Positions 9,187-55,427 are shown, counted from the first letter of the whole stretch. The stretch is DNA of 63,322 nucleotides, filler included, from Reclinomonas americana ATCC 50394 (GCA_048213135.1; 18 parts of 18 records of this genome joined end to end with filler, not necessarily neighbours in it), one strand, 5' to 3'. Notes: generated from the letters alone by a model not told the origin. Made by a program: numbers and translations.

Positions 9187-9373
9187 TTGGTGGTGGGAGG
9201 ACGCGTTGGTGGGACAACTGAAGGCGGATCGAGTAGAGAGACAAAGCAAAGCAGCAAAGACGTCGTCATTGGAGGTGGCGTAAGCTGTTGTTGTTGCCAC
9301 TGCTGTTGCAGCAGCAATTTCAACACTGCCGCACAGTGAGAAACAAGAGGACTGAGGGCTGAAGGCGACGTAG

Positions 9374-9530
9374 GGAGGGCACGGTGAATCTTCTTCCTCC
9401 TGCACCTCCTGCACAGCTCGCATGGCCGAGCGCGCGGAGTCGAGCTCGAAGCGAGCAAGGCCACGCAGCGTGGGCCACACTCGTATCTTCTTGTCTTGGC
9501 CACCCGCACCTACAATGTGCTGACCACTGC
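9374..9530 (-). pseudogene. Degenerate 3' fragment of the local WD40 gene family
   Basis: GQHIVGAGGQDKKIRVWPTLRGLARFELDSARSAMRAVQEVQEEEDSPCPP matches the last WD40 repeat and tail of the genes at 41402-54970; no upstream repeats and the tail is decayed. Confidence 0.8.
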
Positions 9531-9722
9531 CACAGACGACACTCATCCAGTGCTACTGGTCCGCGTCCGCATCATCCACTCCGTTGAAGGTCTGCCTCTC
9601 TGAACGAGTGTCGCATCACCGAACGGCCTGCACTTGCATTCGTGCAGTTAGATACCCTTGCACCTTCGACTCCTTTCGTTGCCTTCGTAAAAAATTGTCA
9701 CCCTCTGCTGCATTTTTCCCCA

Positions 9723-38626: not shown

Positions 38627-40478
38627 ATGTCATTCAAGCAGGTGCGCGCAGGCAACTCGCTCACGTGTCAAGCATCTCTCTCTCTCTCTCTCTCAGTTGC
38701 TCACTCATTGTGTGTTTGCATGTCAGACACAAGCATTGCCAGTGGCCACTCTGAGTGAGCCTCCCGATTTCAGTGTTCCTCCGGCCACTGCAGAGGAGTA
38801 CTTGGCGCGTGTGAGGTGAGGCAGTGAGAGAGAGGAAGGGAAAGGGGAGAAGGGAATGGAAGGGAAGGGAGAGAGAGAGAAAGAGAGAGAGAGAGTGCGT
38901 GTGAGAGCGAGAGAGACAGCAGTGAGAGAGGGAGAGAGAGAGAGAGAGAGAGAGGAGGACGGACAAGAGAGACGAGTGTGGNNNNNNNNNNNNNNNNNNN
39001 NNNNNNNNNNNNNNNNNNNNNNNNNTTAATTAATTAANNNNNNNNNNNNNNNNNNNNNNNNNNNNNNNNNNNNNNNNNNNNAGAGACAACGTGAGACAGA
39101 AAAGCAAAGGAGTCTGCAGTGACAAAGAGGGAAGTAGGAGAGGAGAGAAGAGGCTGTCTTGCAGCATGCTTCTCGTTGACAGGGACACAGAGAGAATGAA
39201 AGTGCGAGCAAGGGGAGGAATGCATAGCGGAGGTAAGTGCAAACTAGGGAGCATTGAAGGGCAAACAGAGACAACAGAGGGTTGTAAAGCAGCGAAGAAG
39301 AAAGAAAGAGAGAGAAAGAGAGAGAGGGGACTGTAGTCTGCCGTCTATCTCCGTTCTGTGCCCTTGCGCTCTCTCCTACTCTTTTCCCCTCTGCGTCTCA
39401 CTGTCTCCCCTGCTCCACAAAAGACAGATAGACACGTGACCACAGTGAAGGTTGACTCAGAGACCGAGTCAGACAGAGAGTGATGCAAGGGACAAGGAGC
39501 GAGACATACATCGACCAACTGAGAGAAGAGCGAGTGACATGCAACCAGAGAAACAACGGATTGCCTTCATTCGAGCCACTCTGCTTCAGTCTCCCTCCCT
39601 CTCCCCCTCCCTTCCCTCACCCCTCCCTTCCCTTCCCTCACCCCTCCCTCACCCTTCTCCCCCCCTCCCCCACCCTCAGATGGGAGGCCGCTCAACACCC
39701 GGCAATCATGACGGCGCTGGACGTCGACCCGCGCGCCTACGACCACCTGCAGACGCGCACCCTGCCTGCACACTCCCTCGCGCTTCCCACCGTCAGGTCT
39801 TCCCCCTCCTCTCTTTTTTGCGTTTTACTCTCGTCGATCTCACCACACAGCGCACCCAGGCACACACGGCTCCAACCGAGACCCACCTGGCAGCGCCACT
39901 TTGCCGCCTCATTCGGCGAGACACGCGCCTGGCTCTCCTCCGTGCAAGAAAGCAGGCGACCCCCTGCATCTTCCTCTTCCACCCCTCGACGACCGGTGGC
40001 ACGACACGCCGAGCGCTGGTCGACGTACTGCACGCAGGTGCCGCCCTCCACCTCGGCCGTGCTGGCCCTGGACCAGGTCGACATTCGCGCCCTGGTCGAG
40101 ATCATTCGCGAGAAACTCGAGCAGGTGCTCTCGTCGCTCTCCGCCCCCGCGGAAACCGAGCGCACACAGCTCGACGTGGAGGCCGACGAGGCCGCCGACG
40201 CGCAACTGCAGCGCCTCGGCGCCTGGGTGTTCTCCATTTGTGCACGCCTCGACCTGCCACTCGACGACGACACCTCAGCCGCCCTCCGCTCCCTCCTCCG
40301 CTCCGCCCTCCTCGCCCGCGACGCACTCGCCGACTCCTTCTCCGAGAACCCACACGAGGACAACCCACGACTCGCCGCACTCAACATTATCATCACACTC
40401 ACCGGCATCTACTTTGCACAACTCGATCCCGACGTTCCGCTGCCCGCCTACGCCCCCTCGTCCTCGCGTACACTGTAA
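38627..40478 (+). CDS. GEMIN2: Gemin2 / SMN-interacting protein 1 (spans a linker)
   Basis: QALPV...PPATAEEYLARVR|WEAAQHP, W..HF...F...R, LGAWVFSICARLDLPL...ALRSLLR, LNIIITLTGIYFAQLD. Confidence 0.88.
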
Positions 40479-40598: not shown

Positions 40599-40706
40599 NN
40601 NNNNNNNNNNNNNNNNNNNNNNNNNNNNNNNNNNNNNNNNNNTTAATTAATTAANNNNNNNNNNNNNNNNNNNNNNNNNNNNNNNNNNNNNNNNNNNNCA
40701 CACACA

Positions 40707-41401: not shown

Positions 41402-42499
41402 ATGTCATCAACTCCTCGCCCAATCTTCCTCTGCCGGCACGTCTTGAATGGACACAGCGACTGGGTGCATTGCGTTGCTCTCACTCCCGATGGTCAGCAT
41501 GTGGTGAGTGGCAGTGGAGACAACACAGTGCGTGTGTGGTCACTGGCAACTGGTGAGGAATTGCGACGGTTGGAGGGGCACTTCAGATCAGTGAGCTCTG
41601 TCGCGGTCGCTCCCGATGGTCAGCTCGTCGTGAGCGGGAGCTATGACAAGACTCTGCGAGTGTGGTCGCTGGCGAGTGGAGAAGAAGTGCGACGGTTGCT
41701 GGGGCATATCTGGGCGGTGCTCTGTGTGGCCATCACACCCGATGGTCAGCACGTCGTGAGTGCGAGTATGGACAAGACCGTGCGCGTGTGGTTTCTCGCA
41801 ACTGGAGAGGAAGTGCGACAACTGAGGGGACACGCTCACTGGGTGCACTCTGTCGCAGTCACTCCCGATGGCCAGCACGTCGTGAGCGCAAGTAATGACC
41901 TCACAGTTCGTGTGTGGTCGCTGGAGAGTGGCGAGGTGGTGCGACACCTTGAAAGGCACCCTATGTTGATGGGGTCTGTCGCCATCTCTCCCGATGGTCA
42001 GCACATGGTGAGCGGGAGTCATGACTGCACAATTGTTGAGTGGTCACTGGCGAGTGGGAAAAAAGTACGACGGCTGCGGGAGCACGACGATGTTGTGCGT
42101 TCTGTCGCCATCACTCCCGACGGCAAGCACGTTGTGAGTGGGAGTTACGACAAGACTGTGCGAGTGTGGCCGCTAGGAAGTGGCGAGGAAGTGCAACAAT
42201 TGGAGGGACACGCTGGGCGGATGTTCTCTGTCGCTGTCTCTCCCGACTGTCAGCACATCGTAAGTGGGAACGATGACAACACAATCCGAGTGTGGTCCAC
42301 TCCATGCGGCCTCGCTCAGCTGGAGCTCTTCACAGCACGCTTGGCCATGCAGGCAGTGCGCGAAATGCAGCTGCAAGAGCAGGAGGAGGAAGAGACGGAC
42401 TCTCGGTGCTTGCCAGAGATGGTGTTGCGCTGCTTCATGGTGGAGGAGGCGGCAGTTGTGGTGCATCGATCGTTTGCCGACCCGGAGTTGCATCTGTGA
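41402..42499 (+). CDS. Intronless 7-repeat WD40 protein with conserved C-terminal tail, copy 1
   Basis: 365-aa ORF with seven GH...VAVTPDGQHVVSGSxDxTVRVW repeats and tail STPCGLAQLELFTAR...DSRCLPEMVLRCF...HRSFADPELHL. Confidence 0.95.
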   Translation: MSSTPRPIFLCRHVLNGHSDWVHCVALTPDGQHVVSGSGDNTVRVWSLATGEELRRLEGHFRSVSSVAVAPDGQLVVSGSYDKTLRVWSLASGEEVRRLLGHIWAVLCVAITPDGQHVVSASMDKTVRVWFLATGEEVRQLRGHAHWVHSVAVTPDGQHVVSASNDLTVRVWSLESGEVVRHLERHPMLMGSVAISPDGQHMVSGSHDCTIVEWSLASGKKVRRLREHDDVVRSVAITPDGKHVVSGSYDKTVRVWPLGSGEEVQQLEGHAGRMFSVAVSPDCQHIVSGNDDNTIRVWSTPCGLAQLELFTARLAMQAVREMQLQEQEEEETDSRCLPEMVLRCFMVEEAAVVVHRSFADPELHL

Positions 42500-42840
42500 G
42501 CTGGTGCTTCAATGTAAGCTTCTGTCACGTGTGCTATCCCCTTTTTTCCTTCCTCTTCTCTCGCTTTACTGCAGTCTCTCCTGAGAATGAATTCGAAATG
42601 AGTGCGACTATTCGACGTCGGGACTTCTTTGCACGCCCCCAAAGGCAGTTGCTCTTCATGCTTCTTTTGCATGCATCCCTGACTGTATTGCAATCTTTCA
42701 TAGACCAGCCAGCAGGAGCGAGGTGGGAGACAACGCGGGAAAAGAGAAGCAGTACGTAGGACACACAGTTTTTCTCTCATATCATTCTCTCTCTCACTCA
42801 CACACACCTTCCGTCTCTATCTCTCTCTCTCACGAAAGCG

Positions 42841-43941
42841 ATGTCAACGTCACCTCGCCCAATCTTCCTCTGCCAGCGCGTCTTGAAGGGACACAGCGAC
42901 TGGGTACAGTGCGTTGCTCTCACTCCCGATGGTCAGCATGTGGTGAGTGGGAGCGGGGACAAGACAATGCGAGTGTGGTCAATGGCGAGTGGAGAGGAAG
43001 TGCGACGACTGGAGGGACACACGGGTTGGGTGTTCGATGTCGCCGTCACCCCCGATGGCCAGCATGTTGTGAGCGTGGATGGGAGCAAGTACAAGACAGT
43101 GCGAGTGTGGTCGCTGGAGAGTGGGGGACAGGTGCGATTGTGGGAGGGACACTATGATGCAGTCAACTCTGTTGTCGTCACTCCCGATGGACAGCACATT
43201 GTTAGTGGGGGAGATGACCACACTGTGCGAGTGTGGTCACTGGCGAGTGGCGAGGAGGTGCGACGGCTCGAAGGGCACACCTGGTCAGTGAATTCTATTG
43301 TCGTCACGCCCGATGGTCAGCACGTGGTCAGTGGAAGCTGGGACATGACCGTGCGATTGTGGTCACTGGCGAGTGGCGAGGAGATTCGGCGACTGGAGGG
43401 ACACACCAGGTCCGTGGAGTCCGTTGCCGTCACTCCCGATGGTCAGCACATCGTGAGTGGCAGCAGAGACTGCACAGTGCGTGTGTGGTCTCTCGCGGGT
43501 GGCGAGGAGGTGCGACGGCTGGGGGAGCACGATGATATCGTGTATTCTGTCGCCATCACTCCCGACGGCAAGCACGTCGTGAGTGGTAGTTACGACAAGA
43601 CTGTGCGAGTGTGGTCACTGACGAGCGGTGAGGAAGTGCGACGACTGAAGGGACACGCTAAAGAGGTCTTGTGTGTTGCCGTCTCTTCCGATGGGCAACA
43701 CATCGTCAGTGGCAGTGGGGACAACAAGATCCGTGTGTGGTCCACTCCATGCGGCCTCGCTCAGCTGGAGCTCTTCACAGCACGCTTGGCCATGCAGGCA
43801 GTGCGGGAAATGCAGCAGGAAGAGGAGGAGGAAGAGACGGACTCCCGATGCCTGCCTGAGATGGTGTTGCGCTGCTTCATTGTCGAGGAGGCGGCTGTTG
43901 TGGTGCATCGATCGTTTGCCGACCCGGAGTTGCTTCTGTGA
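42841..43941 (+). CDS. Intronless 7-repeat WD40 protein, copy 2
   Basis: 366-aa ORF, same architecture and tail as copy 1. Confidence 0.95.
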   Translation: MSTSPRPIFLCQRVLKGHSDWVQCVALTPDGQHVVSGSGDKTMRVWSMASGEEVRRLEGHTGWVFDVAVTPDGQHVVSVDGSKYKTVRVWSLESGGQVRLWEGHYDAVNSVVVTPDGQHIVSGGDDHTVRVWSLASGEEVRRLEGHTWSVNSIVVTPDGQHVVSGSWDMTVRLWSLASGEEIRRLEGHTRSVESVAVTPDGQHIVSGSRDCTVRVWSLAGGEEVRRLGEHDDIVYSVAITPDGKHVVSGSYDKTVRVWSLTSGEEVRRLKGHAKEVLCVAVSSDGQHIVSGSGDNKIRVWSTPCGLAQLELFTARLAMQAVREMQQEEEEEETDSRCLPEMVLRCFIVEEAAVVVHRSFADPELLL

Positions 43942-44117
43942 GCTGGGACTTAATTGTAAGCTTCTGTCACTTGTGCTATCCCCTTCTTTCCTTCCTCTTC
44001 TCTCGCTTGCCNNNNNNNNNNNNNNNNNNNNNNNNNNNNNNNNNNNNNNNNNNNNTTAATTAATTAANNNNNNNNNNNNNNNNNNNNNNNNNNNNNNNNN
44101 NNNNNNNNNNNTACCGT

Positions 44118-44906
44118 GATGCAGTCAACTCTGTAGTCGTCACTCCTGACGGGCAGTATGTTGTCAGCGGGTGTTTAGACAAGACCGTGCGCGTGTGGTC
44201 ACTTGCGAGTGGCAAGGAAGTGCGACGGTGTAGAAGGCACACTGACTGGGTAATGTCTGTGGCTGTCACTCCCGATGGCCAGCACGTGGTGAGTGGAAGC
44301 TGGGACAAGACAGTGCGAGTGTGGTCACTCGCGACTGGAAAAGAGGTGCGACGGCTGGAGGGACACACCGGGTCCGTGGAGTCTGTTGCCGTCACTCCCG
44401 ATGGTCAGCACATCGTGAGTGGCAGCAGGGACTGCACAGTGCGGGTATGGTCATTGACGACTGGCGAGGAGGTGCGACGGCTGGAGGGGCACGGCGATAT
44501 CGTGTTTTCTGTCGTCGTCACTCCCAACAGTCGGTATATTATCAGTGGGAGTCGCGACCAGACAGTGGGGGTGTGGTCACTGGAGAGCGGTGAGGAAGTT
44601 CGACGACTGAAGGGACACGCTAGAGAGGTCTTGTGTGTTGCCGTCACTCCCGATGGTCAACACATCGTCAGCGGGAGCAAGGACAACAAGATCCGCGTGT
44701 GGTCCACTCCATGCGGCCTCGCTCAGCTGGAGCTCTTCACAGCGCGCTTGGCCATGCGGGCAGTGCGCGAGATGCAGCAGCAGAAGGAGGAGGAAGAAGA
44801 GCCGGACTCTCGGTGCTTGCCAGAGATGGTGTTGCGCTGCTTCATGGTGGAGGAGGCGGCTGTCGTGGTACATCGATCTTTCGCTGACACCGAGTTGCAT
44901 CTGTGA
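44118..44906 (+). CDS. Intronless WD40 protein, copy 3 (5' part lost in gap)
   Basis: Frame is open from the contig edge (DAVNSVVVTPDGQYVVSG...); five repeats plus tail are visible. Confidence 0.92.
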   Translation, partial: DAVNSVVVTPDGQYVVSGCLDKTVRVWSLASGKEVRRCRRHTDWVMSVAVTPDGQHVVSGSWDKTVRVWSLATGKEVRRLEGHTGSVESVAVTPDGQHIVSGSRDCTVRVWSLTTGEEVRRLEGHGDIVFSVVVTPNSRYIISGSRDQTVGVWSLESGEEVRRLKGHAREVLCVAVTPDGQHIVSGSKDNKIRVWSTPCGLAQLELFTARLAMRAVREMQQQKEEEEEPDSRCLPEMVLRCFMVEEAAVVVHRSFADTELHL

Positions 44907-45428
44907 GGCACAGCCATGGGAGGACAGAGCTTTCAACTCCTCTCTCGGGTGCTTTCCTCCTCTTCTCTTTCTCTGTATCGTCTCTCGTGAACGACGGTCG
45001 ATGAAATGAGTGACTGCTCGACGTCGGAACTTCGCTGCACTCCTAGACAAGCACAGGTGCCTTCCGCTCTCCTTTTCCATACGCCCTGGACTGCTATTGC
45101 GTTCAGTCATAAGCCAGCAATATGTCGAGCTCGCGATCGAGCTCGAGTGCATGCAATTGGGGAATTCGAATAAATCGATATTGCAAGACATGTACAGCAT
45201 TCACTTCAATCGCACTCCGTGATATCCACCGCTTCCTGCTGCCCACATGCACAGTGCACAGTCAACGCTGTTGCTTAGTTTAGTTAGTTGCCATGCACTG
45301 CATCCATCCATCGGCGATCCATCCACATAACTTCAATCGCGCAACGTTGTGTACGCACGTTCGTGCCTCGCGCCTCCTTCCTCGCTCCCCTGTTGCTCAC
45401 TACTCTCTCACACACAAACAGAAAAGAA

Positions 45429-47097
45429 ATGAGCGACGCTGTGAGTGCTGTGCTCGGATCTCGCCGCAATCGGTACACCAAGGACGCGGTGGAGCCACTG
45501 GAGAATGCAGTGCGCGCCAAGTGCAATGCCGGCGAGGCGTCGGTTGATCTGAATGTGGCGCTGTTGAGGTTGTATGAGGTGTGTGCGGAGAGAGGGGAGA
45601 AGAAGGGGGCGAGTGACATGGACATGTCGTCGTGAGTCATGGACACACGCGCTCGTGTGTGTGTGCGCCCACTCTCTCTTTGTGGAGTGTGTGTGCTGCG
45701 CGCAGTGAGAGGGGAGAGAGAGAGAGGGAGAGTGCTGCTTGTGTGGGGTGGTCAGCGTGTTCAATTTCGGCTTCACAGAGAGAGAGAGAGAGAGAGAGAG
45801 GGTGACAAGAAGAGTGTGAGAGACAGCACGTAAGGCTGCATTCCTGCAAGTCTGTGCTCGTGTTTGTGTTTCCATGTATCGTGCAGCCAGAGACAGAGAG
45901 AGAGTGAGTGAGAGAGAAGAGAGAGAGAGATGAGAGATGGGAGGAGAAGGATAGAAGAAGGGAGAGAGACTTGCCTGAGACAAAGACGCAAGGATGTTCT
46001 TTTGCAGCACNNNNNNNNNNNNNNNNNNNNNNNNNNNNNNNNNNNNNNNNNNNNTTAATTAATTAANNNNNNNNNNNNNNNNNNNNNNNNNNNNNNNNNN
46101 NNNNNNNNNNTTTGCCTCTCCTGTGGTTCTGTCTTCGCCGTTTTCAGCCTCTTGTCGTGCCTGTGGTGTTTCTCTTCATTGAGCTTCGTGCCGTGCTGTC
46201 TTGCGGTGCGATAGTCTGTGGTGTATCTCTCTCTCCTCTTGCTTGCCGTGCGCATGCTGTATTGTTTGTCTTCGTTGACCTATATTCGTGTCATTCGTTA
46301 CCCCCTGCATCGCATCGCACCACGCGACAGACCACCCTTTCCCTGTTCCCCCTTCTCCTCTCACCCACCCTTTCCCTTTGCCCCCTTCCCCTCTCACCCA
46401 CCCTTTCCCTTTGCCCCCTTCCCCTCTCACCCACCGTTTCCCTTTGCCCCATTCTCCTCTCGCCCACCCTTTCCCTTTGCCCCCTTCTCCTCTCACCCAC
46501 CCTTTCTCTTTGCCCCTTCTCCTCTCACCCACCCTTTCCCTTTGCCCCCTTCTCCTCTCGCCCACCCTTTCCCTTTGCCCCCCTCTCCTCTCACCCACCC
46601 TTTCCCTTTGCCCCTTCTCCCTCACCCACTCTTTCCCTTTGCCCCCCTCTCCTCTCGCCAACCCTTTCCCTTTGCCCCCTTCTCCTCTCACCCACCCTTT
46701 CCCTTTGCCCCCTCCTCCCCTCACCCACCCTTTCCCTTTGCCCCCCTTTTTCTTTCCCCCCTTCTCCTCTCTCACCCACCCTTTGCCTCCACGCAGACAT
46801 CTTCCAAACCGTCTCGCAGACCTACCAACGCCTCCAACGCACCCTGCTGGAGGAGTACCTGAACCTGACGGGCGCCGCCTTTGCCGATTTCATCACCGCC
46901 GCCGGCTGCACACTGGTCGACGACGACGTCAGACTGTCACTCAACTCGGAGAACCAACACAAGCCACGCGCCGCACCCAGCACACTCCAATTCGATCGTT
47001 GCGTTCCCCTTTCTCAATCGACGTCATCAATGTCCTGCTCACGCTGACCTTCGCCACAGAATTGACACGAGTGCTGGGCGCTGCTGTCAGTCGCTAA
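45429..47097 (+). CDS. EIF3K: Translation initiation factor 3 subunit K (middle exons in gap)
   Basis: NRYTKDAVEPLENAV...DLNVALLRLYE, then IFQTVSQTYQRL...YLNL...NSENQHKP...LQFDQLTRVL. Confidence 0.85.
46332..46785 (+). repeat. Approx. 33-bp minisatellite (CCCTTTCCCTTTGCCCCCTTCTCCTCTCACCCA)n in eIF3k intron
   Basis: About 13 near-identical tandem copies. Confidence 0.9.
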
Positions 47098-47200
47098 AAC
47101 ACACTGTAGACACGGAAAGAAGCAAGAAAGAGAAAAGCGAAACGAGTGAAAGATGCACATATGCGACGTTCAGGACGCATCTGTATCAAACGAGCTCGAA

Positions 47201-47694
47201 ATGCTGGGAACACTCGCGCGTCGCCTTCCCACTCGCTCACCACTGCTTCTCACGGTGACGCAGACAACGAAGAACGCACTCTCGTTGTGTGTGTGTGTGT
47301 GTGTGCACTCACTTTTCTTGACGCAGCAGCATCGCACCTTTACCGAGCTGCGTGTCGTCAGCACCAAAGANNNNNNNNNNNNNNNNNNNNNNNNNNNNNN
47401 NNNNNNNNNNNNNNTTAATTAATTAANNNNNNNNNNNNNNNNNNNNNNNNNNNNNNNNNNNNNNNNNNNNGCTTGCATGCAGTGCTGTTCTCGCTGGTTC
47501 TCCTCTCCCTACTTTCTCTCTCTCTCTCTCTCTGTCTGTATGTCTGTCGCTCTGTGTATGTGCCTTTGCATGTCGAGCGTGTTGGTCTTCTGCTTCTCTT
47601 TTCCGCAAGTCTCATTTGGGCTCGCGTCTATTCTCCGATTCTCTCAGGAGACCACACGACGAAGCAAGTGCACGCTTGTTATTCTCGTGTGGTT

Positions 47695-47725
<31 letters not shown>

Positions 47726-49253
47726 GCCGTTGCGTGTCAAGCTTCTTGGTCTTCTGCTTCTCTTGTCCGCACATCTCACTTCGTCCTGGTGCATGGAGAG
47801 CTTGTGGGTCGTTGGGCTCGCGTCTATTCTCCGATTCTCTCAGGAGACCACACGACGAAGCAAGTGCACGCTTGTTATTCTCGTGTGGTTCTCTTCTCTC
47901 TCTCTCTCTCTCTCTCTGCCTTTGCATGTCGAGCGTGTTGGTCTTCTGCTTCTCTTTTCCGCAAGTCTCATTTGGGCTCGCGTCTATTCTCCGATTCTCT
48001 CAGGAGACCACACGACGAAGCAAGTGCACGCTTGTTATACTCGTGTGGTTCTCTTCTCTCTCTCTCTCTCTTTGCCTTTGCATGTCGAGCTTGTTGGTCT
48101 TCTGCTTCTCTTGTCCGCACATCTCACATCGTCCTGTTGCATGGAGAACTTGTGGGTATTTGGGCTCGCGTCTATTCTCCGATTCTCTCAGCAGACCACG
48201 TCGAAACACGTTCATACTTGTTGTTCTCGCTTGGTTCTCTTCTCTCTCTCTTTTCTCTCTCTGTGGCATTGCATGTCGAGCTTGTTGTTCTTCTCTCTCG
48301 TCTTGCTTCTCTGTTTCTCTCAGCTATGTCTCACATCGTCTGGTGCTTGTTAGTCTCGCGGGGTTGTCATCTCCATTCTCTGTCTCTCTATTCCTCTCAC
48401 CGTGCCTTTTCTTGTCTTGTTTTTGTTGTCTTCTGGCTTGCTTCTTTTTTCTCCGCAAGTCTCACGTCGTTCTGGTGCATGCTTGTCTTGTTGTTCTCCC
48501 GGGTTCTCTCTCTCTCCGCGCCTCTGCATGTCGAGCTTGTTGTTTATCTCGCTCGCCTTGCATCTCCTTTTCTCATTCAGCAAGTCTCACATTGTGTTAG
48601 TGCAAGAAGAATTTGTTGGTCTTGCATCTTCATTCTCTCTCTCTCTCGGTGCCTTTGCATGGCGAGCTCGTGTGTCTTCGCTTGCTTGTTCTCCTGTCTG
48701 CAAATCTCGCTTCGTCCTGGTTCGCGAAAAGCATTTTGCTCTCGTGGGGTTCTCTCTTCCGTTCTCTCCCTCTTGCTCCCCGTGTCTCTGCGTGTCGAGC
48801 TTGTTCATCTTCTGGCGTGCTTTTCTTCTTCGTTCTCTCCCGTCTCTCTCTCTCTCCGTGCCTTTGCATGCCGAGCTTATTGATCCTCTGCTTGCTTCTT
48901 CTCCTTTTTCCTCACACCGAGCCGCAATCTGCCCCCGTGCATATCGAGCCTCTGCTCTTGCAAGGTCGTTCTTCTGACTTGTTTCTCTTCTCCCCTTCTC
49001 GCTGCAAGTCTGTCGTCATTTGGGCTTGCAATTCTTCGTCTCCGTCCACCATCGCTGTGGCACACCTTTCCCTCTCTCTTCTCATCGCCCCATCCCCCAC
49101 CTTGCCCTCATCCCTCTCCCCCTTTCCTTTTTCGCCCAGGTGTACGCCTCATTCTTCGGCGAGCACCGCCCCGCTCGCTCCACGTTTGCCGTTCGCGAGC
49201 TGCCCAAGGGCGCCCTGGTGGAGATTGAGGCGATTGCCATTCTGAAAAAGTAA
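47201..49253 (+). CDS. RIDA: RidA/YjgF/UK114 enamine deaminase, probably mitochondrial (middle exons in gap)
   Basis: Last exon 49140-49253 encodes [33 protein letters not shown]. The putative 5' exons give a presequence-like [18 protein letters not shown] and LRVVSTK. Confidence 0.85.
47560..48250 (+). repeat. Intronic tandem repeat (approx. 160-200 bp) in RidA gene
   Basis: TTGGGCTCGCGTCTATTCTCCGATTCTCTCAG occurs four times, three followed by GAGACCACACGACGAAGCAAGTGCACG. Confidence 0.85.
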
Positions 49254-49334
49254 GTCTCCCTCCCTCCTCTCTCTCTCCCTCCCTCCCTCTGCTTTCAGTG
49301 AGGAGAGTATATTTTGCCTTCCCCCGTGTATTGT

Positions 49335-50539
49335 TTACGCCATCATCGCCACAATGCCGACAACAGCAACCACCACAGCCGCCATGGTGCCGACGCTCTG
49401 CCTGCGAATTCGCGCGGTGGCGTAGAGGCGAGCTTCCAAGCGGCGAACGAGCGGGTGCTTGCGGCCGTACTTTTTGCGGTAGTACGCCACGACGTGCTTG
49501 CCTTGCATGTGCGCTGCATTGTTCATGCCGCGCGTGCCAAGAATCAAGCACAGCGAGAGACGCGCGTCAATAGTGGCCTCGTGATCGGGGCCAAACGTGG
49601 CTAGCGCCTCCGCCAGCACCACCTGCTGCGACTTCTCGGCATCCACCACGTCGTCCAGCGCCAGCAGCACCTCGTTCTCCTTCGAGCGCATCCAGAACGT
49701 CGCCGGGTGCTTGGCTCCCAGCACCGCCGTCGCCTCGCCGACCAACCTTCCGATTTCCTGCCGCACTTGTGGGTGCCTGTTCGGATCCGCACGCGCCAGA
49801 GTCGCGCACGCATCACCACGCGCCCGCATAGTGTCTGGATGCGTGGCTCCCAGCAGCTGCTGCCGCTCGCTCGCCACCTGCGCCCACTCCTTGTGTGCGT
49901 CGCTAGCGTTGTCCACTGCCGACAGCAGAGTGGCGAGCTTCTCGCGCAACGCGACACGCTCCAGTGGTGACAGTGCCGTCTCAGCGACGACCGAGTACGC
50001 GTCGTCCACCACACGACGCGCCATCTTCTCCGCCCCCGCCACGTGCCCAAGGTCCAGTAGCACATGCGACAGCGCCGATCTCGAGTTGACGAGGACGCTG
50101 GCGGCACGGGCAAGGCCGTGCACGCGCTCGGCATCGTCAACGACACTCTCCAGTACGCGCTTGGCTTCGGGGAAGGCGCTGGATGCGCCGAGTGCTTCGC
50201 CGACCGCGAGGCGAGCTTGCAGAGTGTCGAGATGAGTTTTTCCGTGCACCTGCTCCATGGCCGCCAAAGTGGCTTTGCATTTGGTGACGAGCTGAGTGGA
50301 TGAGGGGGGGAAAGGGAGGAAGGGGAAAGGGAGTGAGGGAGTGAGGAGTGAGGGAGAGAGAGAGGGGAGAGCGACAGAGTGAGAAAGGGTCAGAATCGCC
50401 ATGCATTGCAGTGTCTCTGATCGCTGCACCTCACCTCCTCTTGTGGAGACTTTGAGAAGAATGAACGCACTGTGTGTGGGCGAGCGATACCGATCGCGGG
50501 CACTCCTCGTGCGACGAAGCAGCGCACAGCGCTCAGCAT
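49335..50539 (-). CDS. TPR-repeat protein (kinesin-light-chain-like repeats) with presequence-like N-terminus and C-terminal hydrophobic helix
   Basis: Exons 50539-50435 and 50291-49335 join in phase 0. Repeats HGKTHLDTL, LGATHPDTM, LGAKHPATF, FGPDHEATI, YGRKHPLV; ends TMAAVVVAVVGIVAMMA*. Confidence 0.8.
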
Positions 50540-50939
50540 CGGGGTGGGGGACGGATGTTTCGTTCCGTCCTCCGTGTCCCCCGACGCGGCAGCGTCACAC
50601 GTGTTGGCTGGCAGCATGGCAACTTGGGCGTTCACCGCATGACGCTGGCTGAATGTATTCTTGAATTGTGCTCTGACACACAATCCAAACATGAATGGTG
50701 CGTGACCCTTGACGTCGTTGCAACGTTGTCATAACACAAGTGCACTCTTGCTGGCAGCTGAATGGACGGAAATGCAGTCCAACATGCATACAAAGTTGGT
50801 GGGAGCAACAATGCGCCGCGTGCAACGATGACGTCGCCATTTCATTCGTTCAGAAGCTGCAAACATGAGAAGCGGAAAGAAAGGGGGAGAAAAGCACATC
50901 TTGCAGAGGCTTTCGCCCCATCCTTCCGTCGCCACCGCC

Positions 50940-52058
50940 TCACAGATGCATCTCGGGGTCAACGGATGAACGATGCACCACGACCTCCGCCTCCTCGACA
51001 ATGAAGCACCGCAGCACCATCTCCGGCAAGCACCGAGAATCCGGCTCTTCCTCCTCCTCCTCCTCCTCCTCCTCCTCCTGCTGCTGCTGTTGTTGTTGCA
51101 TCTCCTGCACTGTCTGCATTGCCGAGCGCGCTGCGCGGAGCTCCAGCTGCGCGAGGCCGCATGGAGTGGACCACACTCGTACCGTGCAGTCGGCATATCC
51201 ACTCACGATGTGTTGACCATTGGGAGTGACAGCGACAGAGTGCACTGCATAAGCGTGTCCTTCCAGCCGTTGCAACTCTTCTCCATTCGCCAGTGACCAC
51301 ACTCGCACTGTGCCGTCGCAGCCCCCACTGACGATGTGCTGGCCGTTGGGAGAGACAGCGACGGAGTCCACTGACTTGGCATGTCCCTCCAGGCTTCGCA
51401 CTTCCTCGCCACTGGCAAGCGACCACATACGCACAGTCTTATCCTCACTCCCGCTCACAACGTGCTGGCCGTCAGGAGTGACGGCGACAGCGTTCACTGA
51501 GCAGGTGTGTCCCACTAGCCGTTGAACTTCCTCGCCGCTCGCCAGTGACCACACTCGCACAGCCTTATCCCAACTGCCGCTGACGATATGCAAACCGTCG
51601 GGAGTGACGGCGACAGAGTTCACTGACTTGGTATGTCCCTCCAACCGTCGCACCTCCTCGCCACTAGCAAGTGACCATACTCGCACCGTCTTATCCTCAT
51701 TCCCGCTCACCACATGCTGACCGTCGGGAGTGACGGCAACAGAGATCACCACGCCAGTGCGCCTCTCGAGCCGTCGCACCTCCTTGCCACTCGCCAATGA
51801 CCACACTCGCACTTTTCTATCAAAGTTCCCAGTCACCACATGCTGACCGTCGGGAGTGACGGCGACACAATTCACTTCTCCAGTGTCTTCTCCAAACCGT
51901 CGCTCTTCTTCACCACTCGCCAGTGACCAAATTCGCACAGTGCAGTCACCTCCAGTCACCACATGCTGACAATCGGGAGTGACTGCGACAGACACCAAAA
52001 ATGTGTGGCCCTCCAACACATGCTGGCAGTGGAAGACAGGGCGAGGAGACGTTGACAT
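50940..52058 (-). CDS. Intronless 7-repeat WD40 protein, copy 4
   Basis: 372-aa ORF with the same architecture and a long poly-Q/E linker in the tail. Confidence 0.95.
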   Translation of the reverse strand: MSTSPRPVFHCQHVLEGHTFLVSVAVTPDCQHVVTGGDCTVRIWSLASGEEERRFGEDTGEVNCVAVTPDGQHVVTGNFDRKVRVWSLASGKEVRRLERRTGVVISVAVTPDGQHVVSGNEDKTVRVWSLASGEEVRRLEGHTKSVNSVAVTPDGLHIVSGSWDKAVRVWSLASGEEVQRLVGHTCSVNAVAVTPDGQHVVSGSEDKTVRMWSLASGEEVRSLEGHAKSVDSVAVSPNGQHIVSGGCDGTVRVWSLANGEELQRLEGHAYAVHSVAVTPNGQHIVSGYADCTVRVWSTPCGLAQLELRAARSAMQTVQEMQQQQQQQEEEEEEEEEEEPDSRCLPEMVLRCFIVEEAEVVVHRSSVDPEMHL

Positions 52059-52408
52059 GGATCACGAGAGAGAGAGAGGCGGGGGGGGGGGGGGAAGGAG
52101 AGGGAGAGGAGGGAGAGAGAGAGACACAGAGATGTTGTGCGTGCGTGAGAAGAAGGTCGTTCGGTGCGTCAATGTCCTTCTCCTTCTCTCGACGTCGTTG
52201 GCAACCAAGTGCACTCTTGCTGGCAGCTGAATGGACGGAAATGCAGTCCAACATGCATACAAAGTTGGTGGGAGCAACAATGCGCCGCGTGCAACGATGA
52301 CGTCGCCATTTCATTCGTTCAGGAGCTGCAAACATGAGAAGCGGAAAGAAAAGGGGGAGAAAAGCACATCTAACAGAGGCTTTCGCCCCATCCTCCCATG
52401 GCCGTGCC

Positions 52409-53506
52409 TCACAGATGCATCTCGGGATCGGCAAACGATCGATGCACCACGACCTCCGCCTCCTCGACAATGAAACATCGCAGCACCATCTCCGGCAGAC
52501 ACCGAGAGTCCGGCTCTTCCTCTTCCTCCAGTCGCTGCATCTCCCGCACAGCCAGCATGGCCGATCGCGCGATGAAGAGTTCCTGCTGGGCGAGGACGCA
52601 CGGAGTGCACCACACTCGCATTGTCAAGTCATCGCTCCCGCTCACGACGTGTTGCCCGTTGGGAGAGACAGCGACAGACCGGACCTCTCCAGTGTGTCCC
52701 TCCAACCGTTGCACTTCCTCGCCACTCGCCAGCGACCACACTCGCACGGTCTTGTCGCGACCGCCACTGACGATATGCTGCCCGTCGGGAGTGACCGCGA
52801 CGGATCGTACATGGTCGGTGTGCCCCTCCATTCGCAGCACTTCTTCTCCACTTGCCAGTGACCACACTCGCACAGTCATGTCAGCGCTCCCGCTCACAAC
52901 GTGCTGGCCGCCAGGAGTGAAGGCAACAGAGTCCACCGCCCAAGTGTGCCCCTCCAACTGCCGCACTTCCTCCCAACTCACCAGTGACCACACTCGCACT
53001 GTCGCGTCCATACCAAACGCACTCACTGCGTGCTGACCGTCGGGAGTGACAGCCATAGAGCGCACGCCACCAGCGTGTCCCTTCAACCGTTGCATCTCTT
53101 TCCCACTCGCCAGTGACCACATTCGCACTGTGCTGTCCATACTCCCACTCACGATGTGCTGACCATCAGCGGTGACGGCGACAGACCACACCCATCGTGT
53201 GTGTCCCTCCATCCGTCGCACCTCCTCTCCAGTCGCCAACGACCACACACGCACAGTCTTGTCGAGACTGCCGCTCACCAGATGCTGCCCATCCGGCGTG
53301 ATGGCGACAGAGTACACCTCAGCGGTGTGTCCCTCCAACCGTCGCACCTCCTCGCCACTCGCCAGTGACCACACTCGGATGGACGCGTCGAGACTGCCGC
53401 TCACCACATGCTGCCCGTCGGGAGTGACAACAACACATGCCACCCAGTCGGTATGGCCCTTCAAGACATGCTGGCAGTGGAAGACTGGACGATGAGCAGA
53501 CGACAT
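52409..53506 (-). CDS. Intronless 7-repeat WD40 protein, copy 5
   Basis: 365-aa ORF with the same architecture. Confidence 0.95.
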   Translation of the reverse strand: MSSAHRPVFHCQHVLKGHTDWVACVVVTPDGQHVVSGSLDASIRVWSLASGEEVRRLEGHTAEVYSVAITPDGQHLVSGSLDKTVRVWSLATGEEVRRMEGHTRWVWSVAVTADGQHIVSGSMDSTVRMWSLASGKEMQRLKGHAGGVRSMAVTPDGQHAVSAFGMDATVRVWSLVSWEEVRQLEGHTWAVDSVAFTPGGQHVVSGSADMTVRVWSLASGEEVLRMEGHTDHVRSVAVTPDGQHIVSGGRDKTVRVWSLASGEEVQRLEGHTGEVRSVAVSPNGQHVVSGSDDLTMRVWCTPCVLAQQELFIARSAMLAVREMQRLEEEEEPDSRCLPEMVLRCFIVEEAEVVVHRSFADPEMHL

Positions 53507-53515
53507 GAATCTCGA

Positions 53516-53553
<38 letters not shown>

Positions 53554-53878
53554 CGGAGGGTGTGTGAGATGCAGTGCGAGTGTGAGGCGACGCCGATTAA
53601 AGAAATGTCCTTCCTGTCTCTAATGTGACTTCCGACGTCGTCTCCGTCGCACACTTGATGGTCGATGTATAAACGGGAAAGGGTAGTAGTTAAACATGCA
53701 TACAAATAATGCAGCGGCGCTCGGGCGCGCAACGTTGCTTCGACGTCGAGAAACTCATATGCATTTCATTCTTTCAGGAAAGACAGCCGCAGCAGCAAGA
53801 GGGAAAAGGCACACGAAACAAGAGGCAGACACTCACTCCAGCCTTCCATGGCAACTCGGTCACAGATGCATATCAGGG

Positions 53879-54970
53879 TCAGCGTAAAATCGTGTGCACC
53901 ACGACGGCTGCCTCCTCGACAATGAAGCAGCGCAGCACCATCTCCGGCAGACATCGGGAGTCCGGCTCTTCCTCCTCTTCCTGCTGCTGCTGCTGCTGCT
54001 GCATCTCCCTCACTGCCTGCATCGCCGAGCGCGCTGTACGGAGCTCCTGCTGAGCGAGGCCGCACGGAGTGGACCACACTCGGATTGTCAAGTCATCGCT
54101 CCCGCTCACGATGTGTTGCCCATCGGGTGAGACAGCGACGGCTAACACCCATTGAGTGTGACCCTCCAACCGTTGCACCTCTTCTCCGCTCGCCAGCGAC
54201 CACACTCGCACAATCGAGTCTTCGCTGCCGCCCACCACATGTTGACCGTCGGGAGTGATGGCGACCGACACAGCCCCCTCGGCGCAGCCCTTCAGCTGTC
54301 GACGTCGCACTTTTTCACCACTCATCAGTGACCACACACTCACTGCACTGTTGCAGCCACTCACAATGCTCTGGCCATCGGGAGTGACGGCGACTGAGTG
54401 CACCAGTTCGGCGCGCGCCTCCAGTCGTCGAACCTCGTTGCCACTTGCCAGTGACCACACCCGCACAGTCTTGTCGAGACTTCCGCTCACTACGTGCTGA
54501 CCGTCGGAAGTGACAGCCACAGAGCGCACGCCACCAGCGTGTCCCTCCAGCCGTCGCACCTCCTCTCCACTCGCCAGTGACCACACCCGCACAGTCTTGT
54601 CCTCACTGCCACTCACTACGTGCTGACCATCGGGAGAGACAGCGACAGACCACACCCAACGTGCGTGTCCCTCCAGCCGTCGCACCTCCTCTCCACTCGC
54701 CAGCGACCACAGCCGTACAGTCTTGTCGAGACTTCCGCTCACCACATGCTGCCCGTCGGGAGTGATGGCGACAGAGTACACCTCAGCAGTGTGTCCCTCC
54801 AATCGTCGCACTTCCTCGCCACTCGCCAGTGACCACACTCGGATGGACGCGTCGCCGCTGCCACTCACCACATGCCGACCGTCGGGAGTGACCTCGACAC
54901 TTGCCACCCAGTCGCTGTGGCCCTTCAAGACATGCTGGCAGTGGAAGATAGGGCGACGAGTCGTTGACAT
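53879..54970 (-). CDS. Intronless 7-repeat WD40 protein, copy 6 (terminal frameshift)
   Basis: Start MSTTRRPIFHCQHVLKGH at 54970 by homology with the other copies. Ends VVVHTILR* because of a 1-nt insertion; the family-equivalent stop is at 53860-53862. Confidence 0.92.
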   Translation of the reverse strand: MSTTRRPIFHCQHVLKGHSDWVASVEVTPDGRHVVSGSGDASIRVWSLASGEEVRRLEGHTAEVYSVAITPDGQHVVSGSLDKTVRLWSLASGEEVRRLEGHARWVWSVAVSPDGQHVVSGSEDKTVRVWSLASGEEVRRLEGHAGGVRSVAVTSDGQHVVSGSLDKTVRVWSLASGNEVRRLEARAELVHSVAVTPDGQSIVSGCNSAVSVWSLMSGEKVRRRQLKGCAEGAVSVAITPDGQHVVGGSEDSIVRVWSLASGEEVQRLEGHTQWVLAVAVSPDGQHIVSGSDDLTIRVWSTPCGLAQQELRTARSAMQAVREMQQQQQQQEEEEEPDSRCLPEMVLRCFIVEEAAVVVHTILR

Positions 54971-55427
54971 GATTGGTAAGAGAAGGGGGGTGAAAGGGTG
55001 GAAGGGTGGGGAAGGGAGAGGGAGAGGAGGGGGAGAAGGGGGAGAGAGGGTGCGAGACTGCAGAGAGATAGAGAACGACTGCGGAGAGAGAAGCCCGGGA
55101 GAAGGGGGAGAGAAGGTGCAAGACTGCAAAGAGAGAGAGAGAATGCAGAGGGAGACTGCGTACAGAGACTGCAGCGGGAGACTGCAGAGAAAAGAGCGCG
55201 ATACAATACAAATGCGAAAATTGAGTTCTCGACGTTGGTCGACGTTAAACGCCACGCAGGCAGCAACTATCAAGCCACTATCAAGCGCATACGTCTCTGC
55301 TATCGATGAATGGAGCTGAAGGTGCGTCCTGTCACGCGCTAATTTTCCGACAGTTTCTAGCGGGGGTCCCTCACAGAAACGCTTTTTGTTTGTTTCCGGC
55401 ACTTTCTTGTACGAGCAGATAGCAAGC

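What the first reader, a model, noticed from the sequence alone, without database searches (positions are those of the whole stretch)
41402..54970. Intronless tandem WD40 family with hypervariable binding-face residues: candidate diversifying recognition system
Seen: six paralogs in two convergent triplets (+ 41402-44906, - 50940-54970), all intron-free in an intron-dense genome. Each is built of near-identical 42-aa repeats with a fixed scaffold (VAVTPDGQHVVSGSxDxTVRVWSLASGEEVRRLEGH). Variation concentrates just after GH (SDWVHC, FRSVSS, IWAVLC, AHWVHS, TGWVFD, TAEVYS, TRWVWS, TDHVRS) and around SGSxDx (GDN, YDK, MDK, NDL, HDC, WDM, RDC, LDA, EDK). Established: these are beta-propeller top-face ligand-contact positions, the same ones that diversify in fungal HNWD (HET-E/HET-D) non-self recognition proteins; high internal repeat identity is typical of such receptors and of bacterial WD40s. 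Inference: a rapidly evolving repertoire recognising foreign (virus/symbiont) proteins, here without a NACHT domain.
Basis: partly seen in the sequence, partly recalled or inferred. Interest (0 to 1): 0.85.

Follow-up and report, generated by a model that had tools for sequence, protein, structure and literature searches.

The report
Tandem WD40 propellers with variable faces
A protist genome carries a cluster of six intron-free genes for seven-bladed WD40 propeller proteins that share one bacterial-like scaffold and a unique conserved tail but differ on the ligand-binding face; the family is real, but an immune role is only a guess.

Summary
Six paralogous single-exon genes lie at the stated coordinates. 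Five are complete. The third is cut by a contig end.

Variation is concentrated at unit positions 1, 2, 3, 5, 21 and 23 (2.3-3.8 bits, against at most 1.6 elsewhere). These lie in the D-A loop, at the start of strand A and in the B-C turn. Positions 3, 5, 21 and 23 match the four selected codons of the fungal HNWD genes.

Scaffold and tail are under purifying selection (omega about 0.2). The variable sites change about ten times faster. Omega above 1 is model-dependent: 1.9-3.0 with a shared synonymous rate, 0.8-1.2 with their own rate, and 0.5 in the youngest blade pairs.

Blades are 60-67% identical within a protein, below HNWD (about 85%) and the 'highly repetitive' cut-off (70%). The nearest relatives are bacterial repetitive WD40 proteins (60% identity) with the same scaffold and the same variable positions.

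The tail has no Pfam or PDB match. Only three database proteins share it, one from a Reclinomonas americana EST.

Best reading: variable-face adaptors with a constant docking tail, probably built on a bacterial propeller. Immune recognition is untested.

The parts
41402..42499 (+). W1: complete gene, 365 aa, 7 WD40 blades + tail (tail 42290-42496)
42841..43941 (+). W2: complete gene, 366 aa, 7 blades + tail (tail 43735-43938). Same contig as W1.
44112..44906 (+). W3: 3' part of a gene (blades 3-7 + tail, tail 44697-44903). The reading frame is open from the first base of its contig, so it is truncated by the contig end.
50940..52058 (-). W4: complete gene, 372 aa, 7 blades (blades 1-2 the most degenerate) + tail with the longest Gln/Glu run (tail 50943-51176)
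52409..53506 (-). W5: complete gene, 365 aa. This is the copy modelled: propeller residues 10-300, helix 302-326, helix 332-359.
52412..52615 (-). W5 tail (68 aa): helix, poly-Glu linker, then the nearly invariant C-terminal segment around the CLPEMVLRCF motif. No Pfam, NCBIfam, PADLOC or PDB sequence match.
53879..54970 (-). W6: gene from the family-conserved Met at 54970, 363 aa, 7 blades (blade 5 shortened) + tail (53882-54079). A 1-base frame shift replaces the last ~9 conserved residues.
52206..52403 (-). 3' flank of W5: 96.5% identical over 198 bp to the 3' flank of W4, although the two CDS are only about 70% identical. Either a recent conversion tract or a conserved 3' element.
50737..50933 (-). 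3' flank of W4, the partner of the stretch above
9340..9537 (-). Degenerate seventh copy: last blade plus first tail helix only, 45% identical to W5 residues 280-345
44012..44111 (.). Contig-joining linker (44 N + 12-base stop linker + 44 N) between the W1-W2 contig and the W3 contig. Further linkers at 40599-40698, 46011-46110 and 47371-47470 separate the blocks of the array.

Best explanation
This is a lineage-specific tandem family of small cytosolic adaptor proteins.

Architecture: each protein is a seven-bladed WD40 propeller followed by a two-helix C-terminal tail.

Propeller: it is built from a 42-residue unit very close to that of a group of bacterial repetitive WD40 proteins. It was most likely acquired from bacteria (inferred) and then joined to a eukaryote-specific tail. 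Tandem duplication multiplied the gene, with some exchange of blades and flanks between copies.

Selection: it keeps the blade scaffold and the tail constant. The six top-face positions of every blade are free, or pushed, to differ. Each paralog therefore presents a different binding surface while all share one tail.

Inferred working: the top face binds a paralog-specific ligand. The constant tail couples every paralog to one common partner or place, in the way substrate receptors of ubiquitin ligases are organised.

Shown: gene structure, fold, distribution of variation, purifying selection on scaffold and tail, bacterial affinity of the propeller, and rarity of the tail.

Inferred: ligand binding, the tail's partner, and the horizontal transfer.
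For: Fold.
- Pfam WD40 E 2e-49 to 3e-84.
- AlphaFold models have mean pLDDT 87.0 and 89.7, with 28 strands in 7 blades.
- Best structural matches are prokaryotic or designed repetitive propellers: 2ymu Z 50.4, rmsd 0.9, 290 aligned; 5yzv rmsd 1.1, 43% identity.

Functional genes.
- Scaffold omega is 0.12-0.25 in 15 of 15 pairs.
- Tail dN is 0.03-0.13 against dS 0.17-0.82.
- ML scaffold omega is 0.20-0.22.

Variable face.
- Entropy contrast.
- Variable-site dN divided by scaffold dS is above 1 in 14 of 15 pairs (0.91-2.28).
- There are 39 distinct 5-residue combinations among 40 blades.
- The variable residues are not a neutral mix: Trp 18 observed against 5.2 expected, p 7e-6; Pro 0 against 6.8; Thr 0 against 10.
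- The four most variable scaffold positions, used as a control, give omega 0.28-0.46.

Constant tail.
- 43 invariant columns among the six tails.
- The same helix-linker-LRCF architecture follows two very divergent propellers, P0125 and P0127 (24-30% identity).
- With 9 sequences the tail models as helices 302-326 and 332-359, block pLDDT 69-83.

Bacterial affinity.
- Best database hits are 55-60% identical over the propeller only.
- L003 is 60.2% identical over 284 aa. It lies beside bacterial SelA and SelB genes.
- The unit consensus is identical at 28 of 36 scaffold positions to P0011, P0019, P0084 and P0120; the next best hit scores 0.69.
- The same six positions vary in 19 units from 5 of those proteins.
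- The genes lack introns beside an intron-rich neighbour.

Expression of the family: the only close tail-bearing relative is an ORF from a Reclinomonas americana EST in EukProt, 70-83% identical to the six copies.
Against: - No ligand, partner or phenotype is known.
- The tail matches no F-box, SOCS box or any other Pfam family, even at E up to 1. The ubiquitin-ligase analogy is therefore one of organisation only.
- With only the six paralogs in the alignment, tail residues 331-365 modelled below pLDDT 50. The two-helix tail is a moderate-confidence prediction.
- Transfer from bacteria is not tested by a rooted tree. Repetitive WD40 units drift towards a common consensus, which could inflate the likeness. 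P0125 and P0127 show the propeller-plus-tail architecture with ordinary, divergent blades, so the family may be older than a recent transfer would imply.
- Expression of these six genes themselves is not shown.
- The organism is not identified by any search. Only a relative's record carries a name.
- The order and orientation of the contigs rest on scaffolding.
Confidence: 0.6

Rival explanations
1. One reading: the family is a diversifying non-self recognition repertoire. Its top faces are driven apart by positive selection to recognise viral, symbiont or prey proteins. It would work like fungal HNWD receptors, but without a NACHT domain.
For: - The variable positions coincide with the HNWD selected codons.
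- Omega at the a-priori set 3, 5, 21, 23 is 1.91 (2dlnL 21.3), and 1.9-3.0 for the five-position set (2dlnL 23-39), if the synonymous rate is shared with the scaffold.
- 39 of 40 blades carry a unique combination, enriched in Trp, Lys, Asp, His and Asn.
- Identity between neighbours is mosaic: 64-90% per blade.
- Internal blades 2-6 do not group by blade index, which fits blade exchange.
- Tandem arrays are typical of immune gene families (general knowledge).
Against: - Omega is 0.77-1.17 (2dlnL below 0.4) when the variable codons get their own rate, and that model fits better (2dlnL 5.8-9.6).
- In the six youngest blade pairs only 8 of 30 variable residues differ, and dN over scaffold dS is 0.52. 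Those pairs were picked for high identity, which biases this figure downwards.
- The paralogs are old (dS 0.43-1.15).
- All complete copies have seven blades.
- There is no NACHT, NB-ARC, HET or death-type domain in the proteins, in the 28 ORFs scanned or in those scanned.
- PADLOC gives only a generic WD-type match.
- The unit tree is poorly resolved: 22 of 37 forks are open.
Confidence: 0.15
2. Ordinary paralogs with relaxed loops: after duplication the exposed D-A and B-C loop residues simply drift because they are unconstrained. The proteins act through the tail or another surface, and no ligand diversification is involved.
For: - Omega at the variable sites cannot be told from 1 under the better-fitting model.
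- The same positions are the most variable in bacterial relatives and in WD40 proteins at large.
- Close paralog blades keep most of their variable residues.
Against: - The residue mix departs strongly from the mutational expectation: Trp 3.4-fold enriched, with no Pro or Thr among 198 codons.
- Top-face loops are the usual WD40 binding surface (PMC1805685 and PMC5587647, passages read).
- A scaffold held at omega 0.2 around fully free loops in six retained copies is hard to explain without a use for the loops.
Confidence: 0.2
3. Artefact: the copies are haplotypes, mis-assembled repeats or bacterial contamination in a fragmented assembly.
For: - The assembly is highly fragmented: there are 17 linkers in 63 kb.
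- W3 is cut at a contig end.
- The propeller looks bacterial.
- The W4-W6 contig has a higher G+C content, about 0.59 against about 0.50 in its flanks.
Against: - The copies differ by 10-36% per blade at the nucleotide level, far beyond allelic variation.
- W1 and W2, and W4-W6, lie in tandem on single contigs.
- CT-rich microsatellite intergenic DNA and the family-specific tail are unlike the bacterial loci.
- A cDNA-derived relative exists in a eukaryote.
Confidence: 0.03

Closest known systems
Bacterial repetitive WD40 proteins: the metagenomic group P0011/P0019/P0084/P0120 and locus L003; solved examples 2ymu (title: highly repetitive propeller) and 5yzv (PkwA WD40 domain of Thermomonospora curvata)
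   Same: - 42-residue unit, with 28 of 36 scaffold positions identical at consensus level.
- 55-60% identity over the whole propeller.
- The same six variable positions.
- Near-identical fold: Z 50.4, rmsd 0.9.
   Different: - The bacterial proteins are 365-926 aa. They carry N-terminal coiled-coil, FHA, transmembrane or other regions and end just after the last blade.
- The window's proteins have no N-terminal domain and carry a unique C-terminal two-helix tail.
- Their internal identity is lower: 0.60-0.67 against 0.75-0.79.
- They lie in a eukaryotic tandem array.
Fungal HNWD/NWD receptors (HET-E, HET-D, HET-R of Podospora anserina)
   Same: - 42-residue WD units with a conserved scaffold.
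- Variation sits in two pairs of codons flanking a conserved residue, in the D-A loop and the B-C turn.
- A multigene family with signs of exchange between copies.
   Different: - No NACHT domain and no HET or other N-terminal effector.
- Internal identity is 60-67% against about 85%.
- A fixed seven blades, rather than the variable repeat number described for HNWD.
- Positive selection is not robustly shown.
- A C-terminal tail absent from HNWD as described in the passages read.
Moderately or highly repetitive WD40 class of Hu et al. 2017 (PMC5587647)
   Same: Repeats are far more alike than in ordinary WD40 proteins, with diversity at predicted hotspot sites. The paper reports the class in prokaryotes, protists and fungi.
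   Different: - The family falls in the 'moderately repetitive' band (0.4-0.7), not the 'highly repetitive' one (at least 0.7).
- The tandem family and the tail did not turn up in any passage I read. I saw passages only, not the whole paper or its supplements.
WD40 substrate receptors of cullin-RING ligases (F-box/WD40 such as FBXW7, SOCS-box WSB proteins, DCAFs). This is a likeness of working, recalled from general knowledge.
   Same: The organisation is one variable WD40 recognition face plus one short constant docking module shared by many family members. FBXW7 appears among the sequence matches to the propeller.
   Different: No F-box, SOCS box or any other Pfam family is detected in the tail at E up to 1. 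In F-box proteins and DCAFs the docking module lies N-terminal to the propeller, not C-terminal as here (recalled). No ligase partner has been tested.

Membership tests
WD40 repeat beta-propeller (Pfam PF00400) | Repeated units of about 40 residues matching the WD40 profile above the gathering score | tested here: met
   164-275 bits against a cut-off of 27. There are 7, 7, 4, 7, 7 and 6 stretches, and 7 units in the five complete genes by unit HMM.
WD40 repeat beta-propeller (Pfam PF00400) | Closed seven-bladed propeller of four-stranded sheets | tested here: met
   AlphaFold models have 28 strands, with pLDDT above 90 over residues 10-300. Best matches: 2ymu Z 50.4, rmsd 0.9; 5yzv rmsd 1.1.
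Highly-Repetitive WD40 (Hu et al. 2017) | Internal sequence identity of repeats at least 0.7 | tested here: not met
   Mean pairwise blade identity is 0.595-0.669 per protein, with the cut-off taken. My mean-pairwise measure may differ from the paper's. The family falls in the 0.4-0.7 'moderately repetitive' band.
Highly-Repetitive WD40 (Hu et al. 2017) | Most sites conserved, hotspot sites diverse | tested here: met
   Six positions at 2.3-3.8 bits, the other 36 at or below 1.59 bits.
HNWD / NWD (fungal NACHT-WD receptors) | NACHT nucleotide-binding domain N-terminal to the WD repeats | tested here: not met
   Only 18 residues precede blade 1. No NACHT is among the 25 best families listed per protein; that call found 52-58 families per protein and showed only the best 25. 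None appears in the other window ORFs scanned.
HNWD / NWD (fungal NACHT-WD receptors) | N-terminal effector domain (HET or other) | tested here: not met
   There is no room for one, and none is detected.
HNWD / NWD (fungal NACHT-WD receptors) | Repeats about 85% identical to each other | tested here: not met
   60-67% overall and 74% over scaffold positions. The threshold comes from PMC4986451.
HNWD / NWD (fungal NACHT-WD receptors) | Four top-face codons (two pairs flanking conserved residues) under positive diversifying selection | tested here: inconclusive
   Positions 3, 5, 21 and 23 correspond. Omega is 1.91 (2dlnL 21.3) with a shared synonymous rate and 0.88 (not significant) with its own rate. 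It is 0.52 in the youngest blade pairs.
HNWD / NWD (fungal NACHT-WD receptors) | Concerted evolution: repeats exchanged within and between genes | tested here: inconclusive
   For: different blades are as close as the same blades of different genes (dS 0.86-0.89 against 0.75); codon identity is 0.58-0.62 against 0.39 expected; identity is mosaic; blades 2-6 do not group by index. Against: the tree is weakly resolved and divergence is high.
HNWD / NWD (fungal NACHT-WD receptors) | Repeat-number polymorphism | not testable with these tools
   All five complete paralogs have seven blades. No population data or reads were available.
F-box or SOCS-box WD40 substrate receptors | F-box or SOCS-box domain detectable by profile | tested here: not met
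   The tail (P0121) matches 0 Pfam families at E up to 1 and 0 in NCBIfam and PADLOC. A fold-level comparison of the tail alone was not done.

The most novel reading that the evidence does not exclude
A deep-branching protist (jakobid-like) runs a NACHT-less, WD40-only recognition repertoire. It took a repetitive propeller from bacteria and fused it to a new two-helix signalling tail. It then multiplied the gene in tandem and diversified it at the same four to six top-face codons that fungi use in HET-E/HET-D. This would be an independent invention of a variable-receptor family that reports through a so far unknown common partner of the tail.
Probability: 0.12. Interest if true: 0.8.

Novelty: new variant of a known kind. 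Interest (0 to 1): 0.42.

Why it matters
Repetitive WD40 propellers with variable hotspot residues are known from bacteria and from fungal NLR-type receptors. In both they sit at the end of large multidomain proteins. Here the same module stands almost alone, in a eukaryote far from fungi. It is multiplied in tandem and coupled to a short conserved tail that has no described relative.

If the tail docks to a common partner, the family gives a minimal and tractable case of 'one constant handle, many variable faces'. It may also be an example of a bacterial repeat module recruited by a protist.

It is also a clean test bed for a specific question: does the hotspot variability of repetitive WD40 proteins reflect selection for diversity, or only lack of constraint? 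The present data cannot settle that.

Tried and rejected
- Whole genome: none is held for this window, so no genome-wide census was possible.
- Sequencing runs: none was listed for 50700-55500 and no RNA holder was listed.
- Complex prediction (two copies of the tail): not available.
- Word-based search with the tail region. In the 200-639 aa range, none of 19 candidates scored. Among shorter proteins only P0122 was found.
- Exhaustive profile search with the six tails: 6 proteins with E at or below 0.001. Three of them (P0123, P0124, P0126) match only profile positions 2-28, and P0123 is a long internally repetitive protein. I set these three aside as likely spurious. P0124 and P0126 were not inspected.
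- Genome-contig scan with W5: the tool picked variable peptides as patterns and returned only two distant loci, at 32% and 23% identity.
- Viral-contig scan with the tail alignment: 588 pattern matches, none confirmed.
- The scan's earlier findings returned nothing by place, by sequence or by words.
- The IQ-TREE partition run did not print omega, so I wrote my own codon-model likelihood.
- PADLOC gave one generic WD-type match, HEAT-ARM_XIII, which I do not count as evidence of defence.
- Structure searches aligned model residues 1-303 only. The tail's fold was not searched on its own.
- Literature searches found no paper on such a family in jakobids or other protists. This covers the held library only.
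- I considered and dropped a PTS1 peroxisomal signal and a BC-box or F-box reading of the tail, by eye, because the motifs do not fit. No tool test was made beyond Pfam.

Full report
**What is there**

The window is a chain of short contigs joined by 17 identical linkers, each 44 N, a 12-base all-frame stop linker and 44 N. One contig (40699-44011) holds W1 (41402-42499, +) and W2 (42841-43941, +). The next (44112-46010) opens in frame inside a third gene, W3, which ends at 44906 and keeps blades 3-7. After a 1.3-kb contig, the contig 47471-56272 holds W6 (53879-54970), W5 (52409-53506) and W4 (50940-52058), all on the minus strand. A TPR gene (49335-50429) follows on the same strand.

Pfam sees only WD40 and propeller families in the six proteins. 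The six align without trouble. Each has:
- 18 N-terminal residues,
- seven 42-residue units,
- a tail of 66-78 residues.

W6 has a 1-base frame shift that replaces its last conserved residues. A degenerate fragment, the last blade plus the first tail helix, lies at 9340-9537 on the minus strand.

The copies cannot be alleles. Per-blade nucleotide identity between genes is 64-90%.

**The observation**

Over the 40 blades, unit positions 1, 2, 3, 5, 21 and 23 (counted from the residue after the Gly-His) have 2.33-3.76 bits of entropy and 10-16 residue types. None of the other 36 positions exceeds 1.59 bits.

Two statements need trimming:
- The repeats are not near-identical. They are 60-67% identical within a protein, and 74% over scaffold positions.
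- The picture of two convergent triplets depends on scaffold joins that I could not verify. No sequencing run was listed and no genome is held.

The neighbouring 6PGDH gene has three short GT-AG introns in 520 bp. The absence of introns from 1.1-kb genes therefore stands out. Other neighbours, however, also have long open exons.

**Structure**

AlphaFold gives a confident seven-bladed propeller: mean pLDDT 87.0 with six sequences and 89.7 with nine. DSSP puts:
- unit positions 4-9 in strand A,
- 15-20 in strand B,
- 24-29 in strand C,
- 35-40 in strand D.

So positions 1-3 are in the D-A loop, 5 is at the start of strand A, and 21/23 flank the invariant Asp of the B-C turn. Passages of Paoletti et al. 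2007 (PMC1805685) state that HNWD codons 7/9 (D-A loop) and 25/27 (B-C turn) flank conserved codons 8 and 26 and lie on the top interaction surface. Positions 3/5 and 21/23 here are the same four sites, with the same spacing. I did not compute surface exposure from coordinates.

The best structural matches are prokaryotic or designed repetitive propellers and WDR5. All alignments stop near residue 303.

**Selection**

Scaffold codons are under purifying selection in all 15 gene pairs: dN 0.11-0.18, dS 0.43-1.15, omega 0.12-0.25. The tail is too: dN 0.03-0.13, dS 0.17-0.82. These are working genes and old duplicates.

At the five most variable positions dN is 0.40-2.03. Divided by scaffold dS this gives 0.91-2.28, above 1 in 14 of 15 pairs.

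A joint codon-model likelihood on one tree gives these values:

| Model | omega, scaffold | omega, variable sites | 2dlnL against omega = 1 |
|---|---|---|---|
| Shared synonymous branch lengths | 0.20-0.21 | 1.9-3.0 | 23-39 |
| Variable codons with own rate (1.9-3.3 times faster) | 0.21-0.22 | 0.77-1.17 | below 0.4 |

The own-rate model fits better, with 2dlnL 5.8-9.6 for one parameter.

The a-priori HNWD-equivalent set (positions 3, 5, 21, 23; 28 codons) behaves the same way: 1.91 (2dlnL 21.3) against 0.88. The four most variable scaffold positions, taken as a control, give 0.46 and 0.28, both significantly below 1.

In the six most similar blade pairs, 8 of 30 variable residues differ, against 22 of 202 scaffold residues (p 0.035). 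Variable-site dN is 0.52 of scaffold dS. Those pairs were chosen for high identity, which biases the ratio down.

In sum, replacement at the face is about ten times faster than in the scaffold and at least near neutral. Omega above 1 is not robust.

Pure neutrality fits poorly with the residue mix. Among 198 variable codons:
- Trp is 3.4-fold over expectation (18 against 5.2, p 7e-6).
- Lys, Asp, His and Asn are about 2-fold over expectation.
- Pro and Thr are absent.
- 39 of 40 blades have a unique combination.

**History of the repeats**

Different blades are almost as close as the same blade in different genes: scaffold dS 0.86-0.89 against 0.75, and amino-acid identity 0.74 against 0.76. 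Where residues agree, codons agree in 58-62% of cases against 39% expected from codon usage. So the likeness of the blades is inherited at the DNA level, not convergent.

In a tree of the 40 units built on scaffold codons, only blade 7 (0 of 500 shuffles as low) and blade 1 (4 of 500) group by index. Blades 2-6 do not. However, 22 of 37 forks are unresolved.

Identity between neighbours is mosaic, for example W5/W6 at 90, 90, 81, 79, 67, 73 and 82% over blades 1-7. The 3' flanks of W4 and W5 are 96.5% identical over 198 bp although their CDS are about 70% identical.

This fits occasional conversion or blade exchange. It is much weaker than the homogenisation described for HNWD, where repeats are about 85% identical (PMC4986451).

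**Relatives**

The protein search returned 4621 hits among 7999 scored candidates. The best cover 67-95% of the query, mostly about 78%, which is the propeller alone.

The most similar (51-60% identity) are unnamed metagenome proteins whose blades use almost the same scaffold. The family's unit consensus matches theirs at 28 of 36 scaffold positions; the next best hit scores 0.69. The same six positions vary in them: 19 units from 5 proteins, at 1.7-3.1 bits against at most 1.4 elsewhere.

The closest locus, L003, is 60.2% identical over 284 aa. It encodes a 926-aa protein with a long N-terminal region and lies next to SelA and SelB genes of bacterial type on a dense 61% G+C contig.

Hu et al. 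2017 (PMC5587647, passages) already describe repetitive WD40 proteins in prokaryotes, protists and fungi whose sites are conserved except the predicted hotspots.

Together with the lack of introns, I infer that the propeller came from bacteria, at roughly even odds. No rooted tree was made.

**The tail**

The tail is the distinctive part. Among the six copies 43 columns are invariant. It has no match in Pfam at E up to 1, in NCBIfam, in PADLOC or in PDB sequences.

An exhaustive profile search of 1.84 billion representatives found three credible relatives:
- P0122, an ORF from a Reclinomonas americana EST in EukProt. It is 70-83% identical to the six copies and identical to none.
- P0125 and P0127, from anonymous assemblies. 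Their propellers are only 24-30% identical to W5 and are not repetitive, but they end in the same helix, charged linker and Leu-Arg-Cys-Phe segment.

With these added, the tail models as two helices, 302-326 and 332-359, with block pLDDT 69-83. With the six paralogs alone, residues 331-365 were below pLDDT 50.

The EST shows that a family member is transcribed in a jakobid. It says nothing direct about these six genes.

**Reading**

The data fit a family of small adaptors in which a constant handle (the tail) is joined to a variable recognition face.

- There is no NACHT or other signalling domain in the proteins or nearby.
- There is no robust omega above 1.
- There are no expression or challenge data.

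I put it at about 0.15, plain drift of unconstrained loops at about 0.2, and artefact at about 0.03.

**Limits**

- Only six to seven sequences from one fragmented assembly were available.
- Divergence at the variable sites is near saturation.
- A single tree was used despite signs of exchange between copies.
- The variable positions were first chosen from the data themselves. The a-priori set and the control address this only in part.
- Supplements of the papers were not read.

Noticed in passing
window, 17 sites, e.g. 8841-8940, 44012-44111, 56273-56372: Every gap is 44 N + TTAATTAATTAA + 44 N, an all-frame stop linker used to concatenate contigs. The window is therefore a chain of 1.2-9 kb contigs, many of which end in GA/CT microsatellites.
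   Followed up: partly
window 49335-50429 (-): A single-exon TPR gene lies directly downstream of W4 on the same strand. It matches TPR_10/TPR_12 (E about 1e-11) and, below its cut-off, NCBIfam FxSxx_TPR, and it ends in a hydrophobic stretch. Its repeats are not highly alike. This TPR type is the one found in fungal and bacterial NLR-like proteins, but no link to the WD genes was shown.
   Followed up: partly
window 52206-52403 and 50737-50933 (-): The 3' flanks of W5 and W4 are 96.5% identical over 198 bp, far more than the coding regions (about 70%). The 3' flanks of W1 and W2 are 91% identical over 67 bp, up to the contig end. This is either a recent conversion tract or a conserved 3' element.
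   Followed up: partly
window 53879-53960 (-): W6 loses the last conserved residues of the tail through a 1-base frame shift. The conserved ending is readable in another frame. This is either a sequencing error or a real lesion.
   Followed up: partly
window 9022-9552 (-): A relic of a seventh family member (last blade, first tail helix, acidic run) lies 32 kb from the array, next to a contig end. No further blades were seen upstream in any frame.
   Followed up: partly
window 57860-58290 (+): The 6-phosphogluconate dehydrogenase gene is split by three short GT-AG introns (about 65 nt for the two whose ends were seen) within 520 bp.
   Followed up: partly
upstream of W2, W4, W5, W6 (e.g. 53507-53600, 54971-55200): Long CT-rich or CA-rich tracts sit directly before the start codons of four copies. 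A TTTGTATGCATG-like element recurs in the intergenic spacers.
   Followed up: no
window 26882-28183 (-): A 434-codon open frame has a weak right-handed beta-helix match (PF13229, E 1e-5, just below its cut-off). Other neighbours are ordinary eukaryotic genes: tyrosine phosphatase at 3050-3514, Omp85 at 13584-14063, lysine methyltransferase at 30083-30661, fatty-acid desaturase at 36405-37337, and SIP1/gemin2 at 39480-40478.
   Followed up: no
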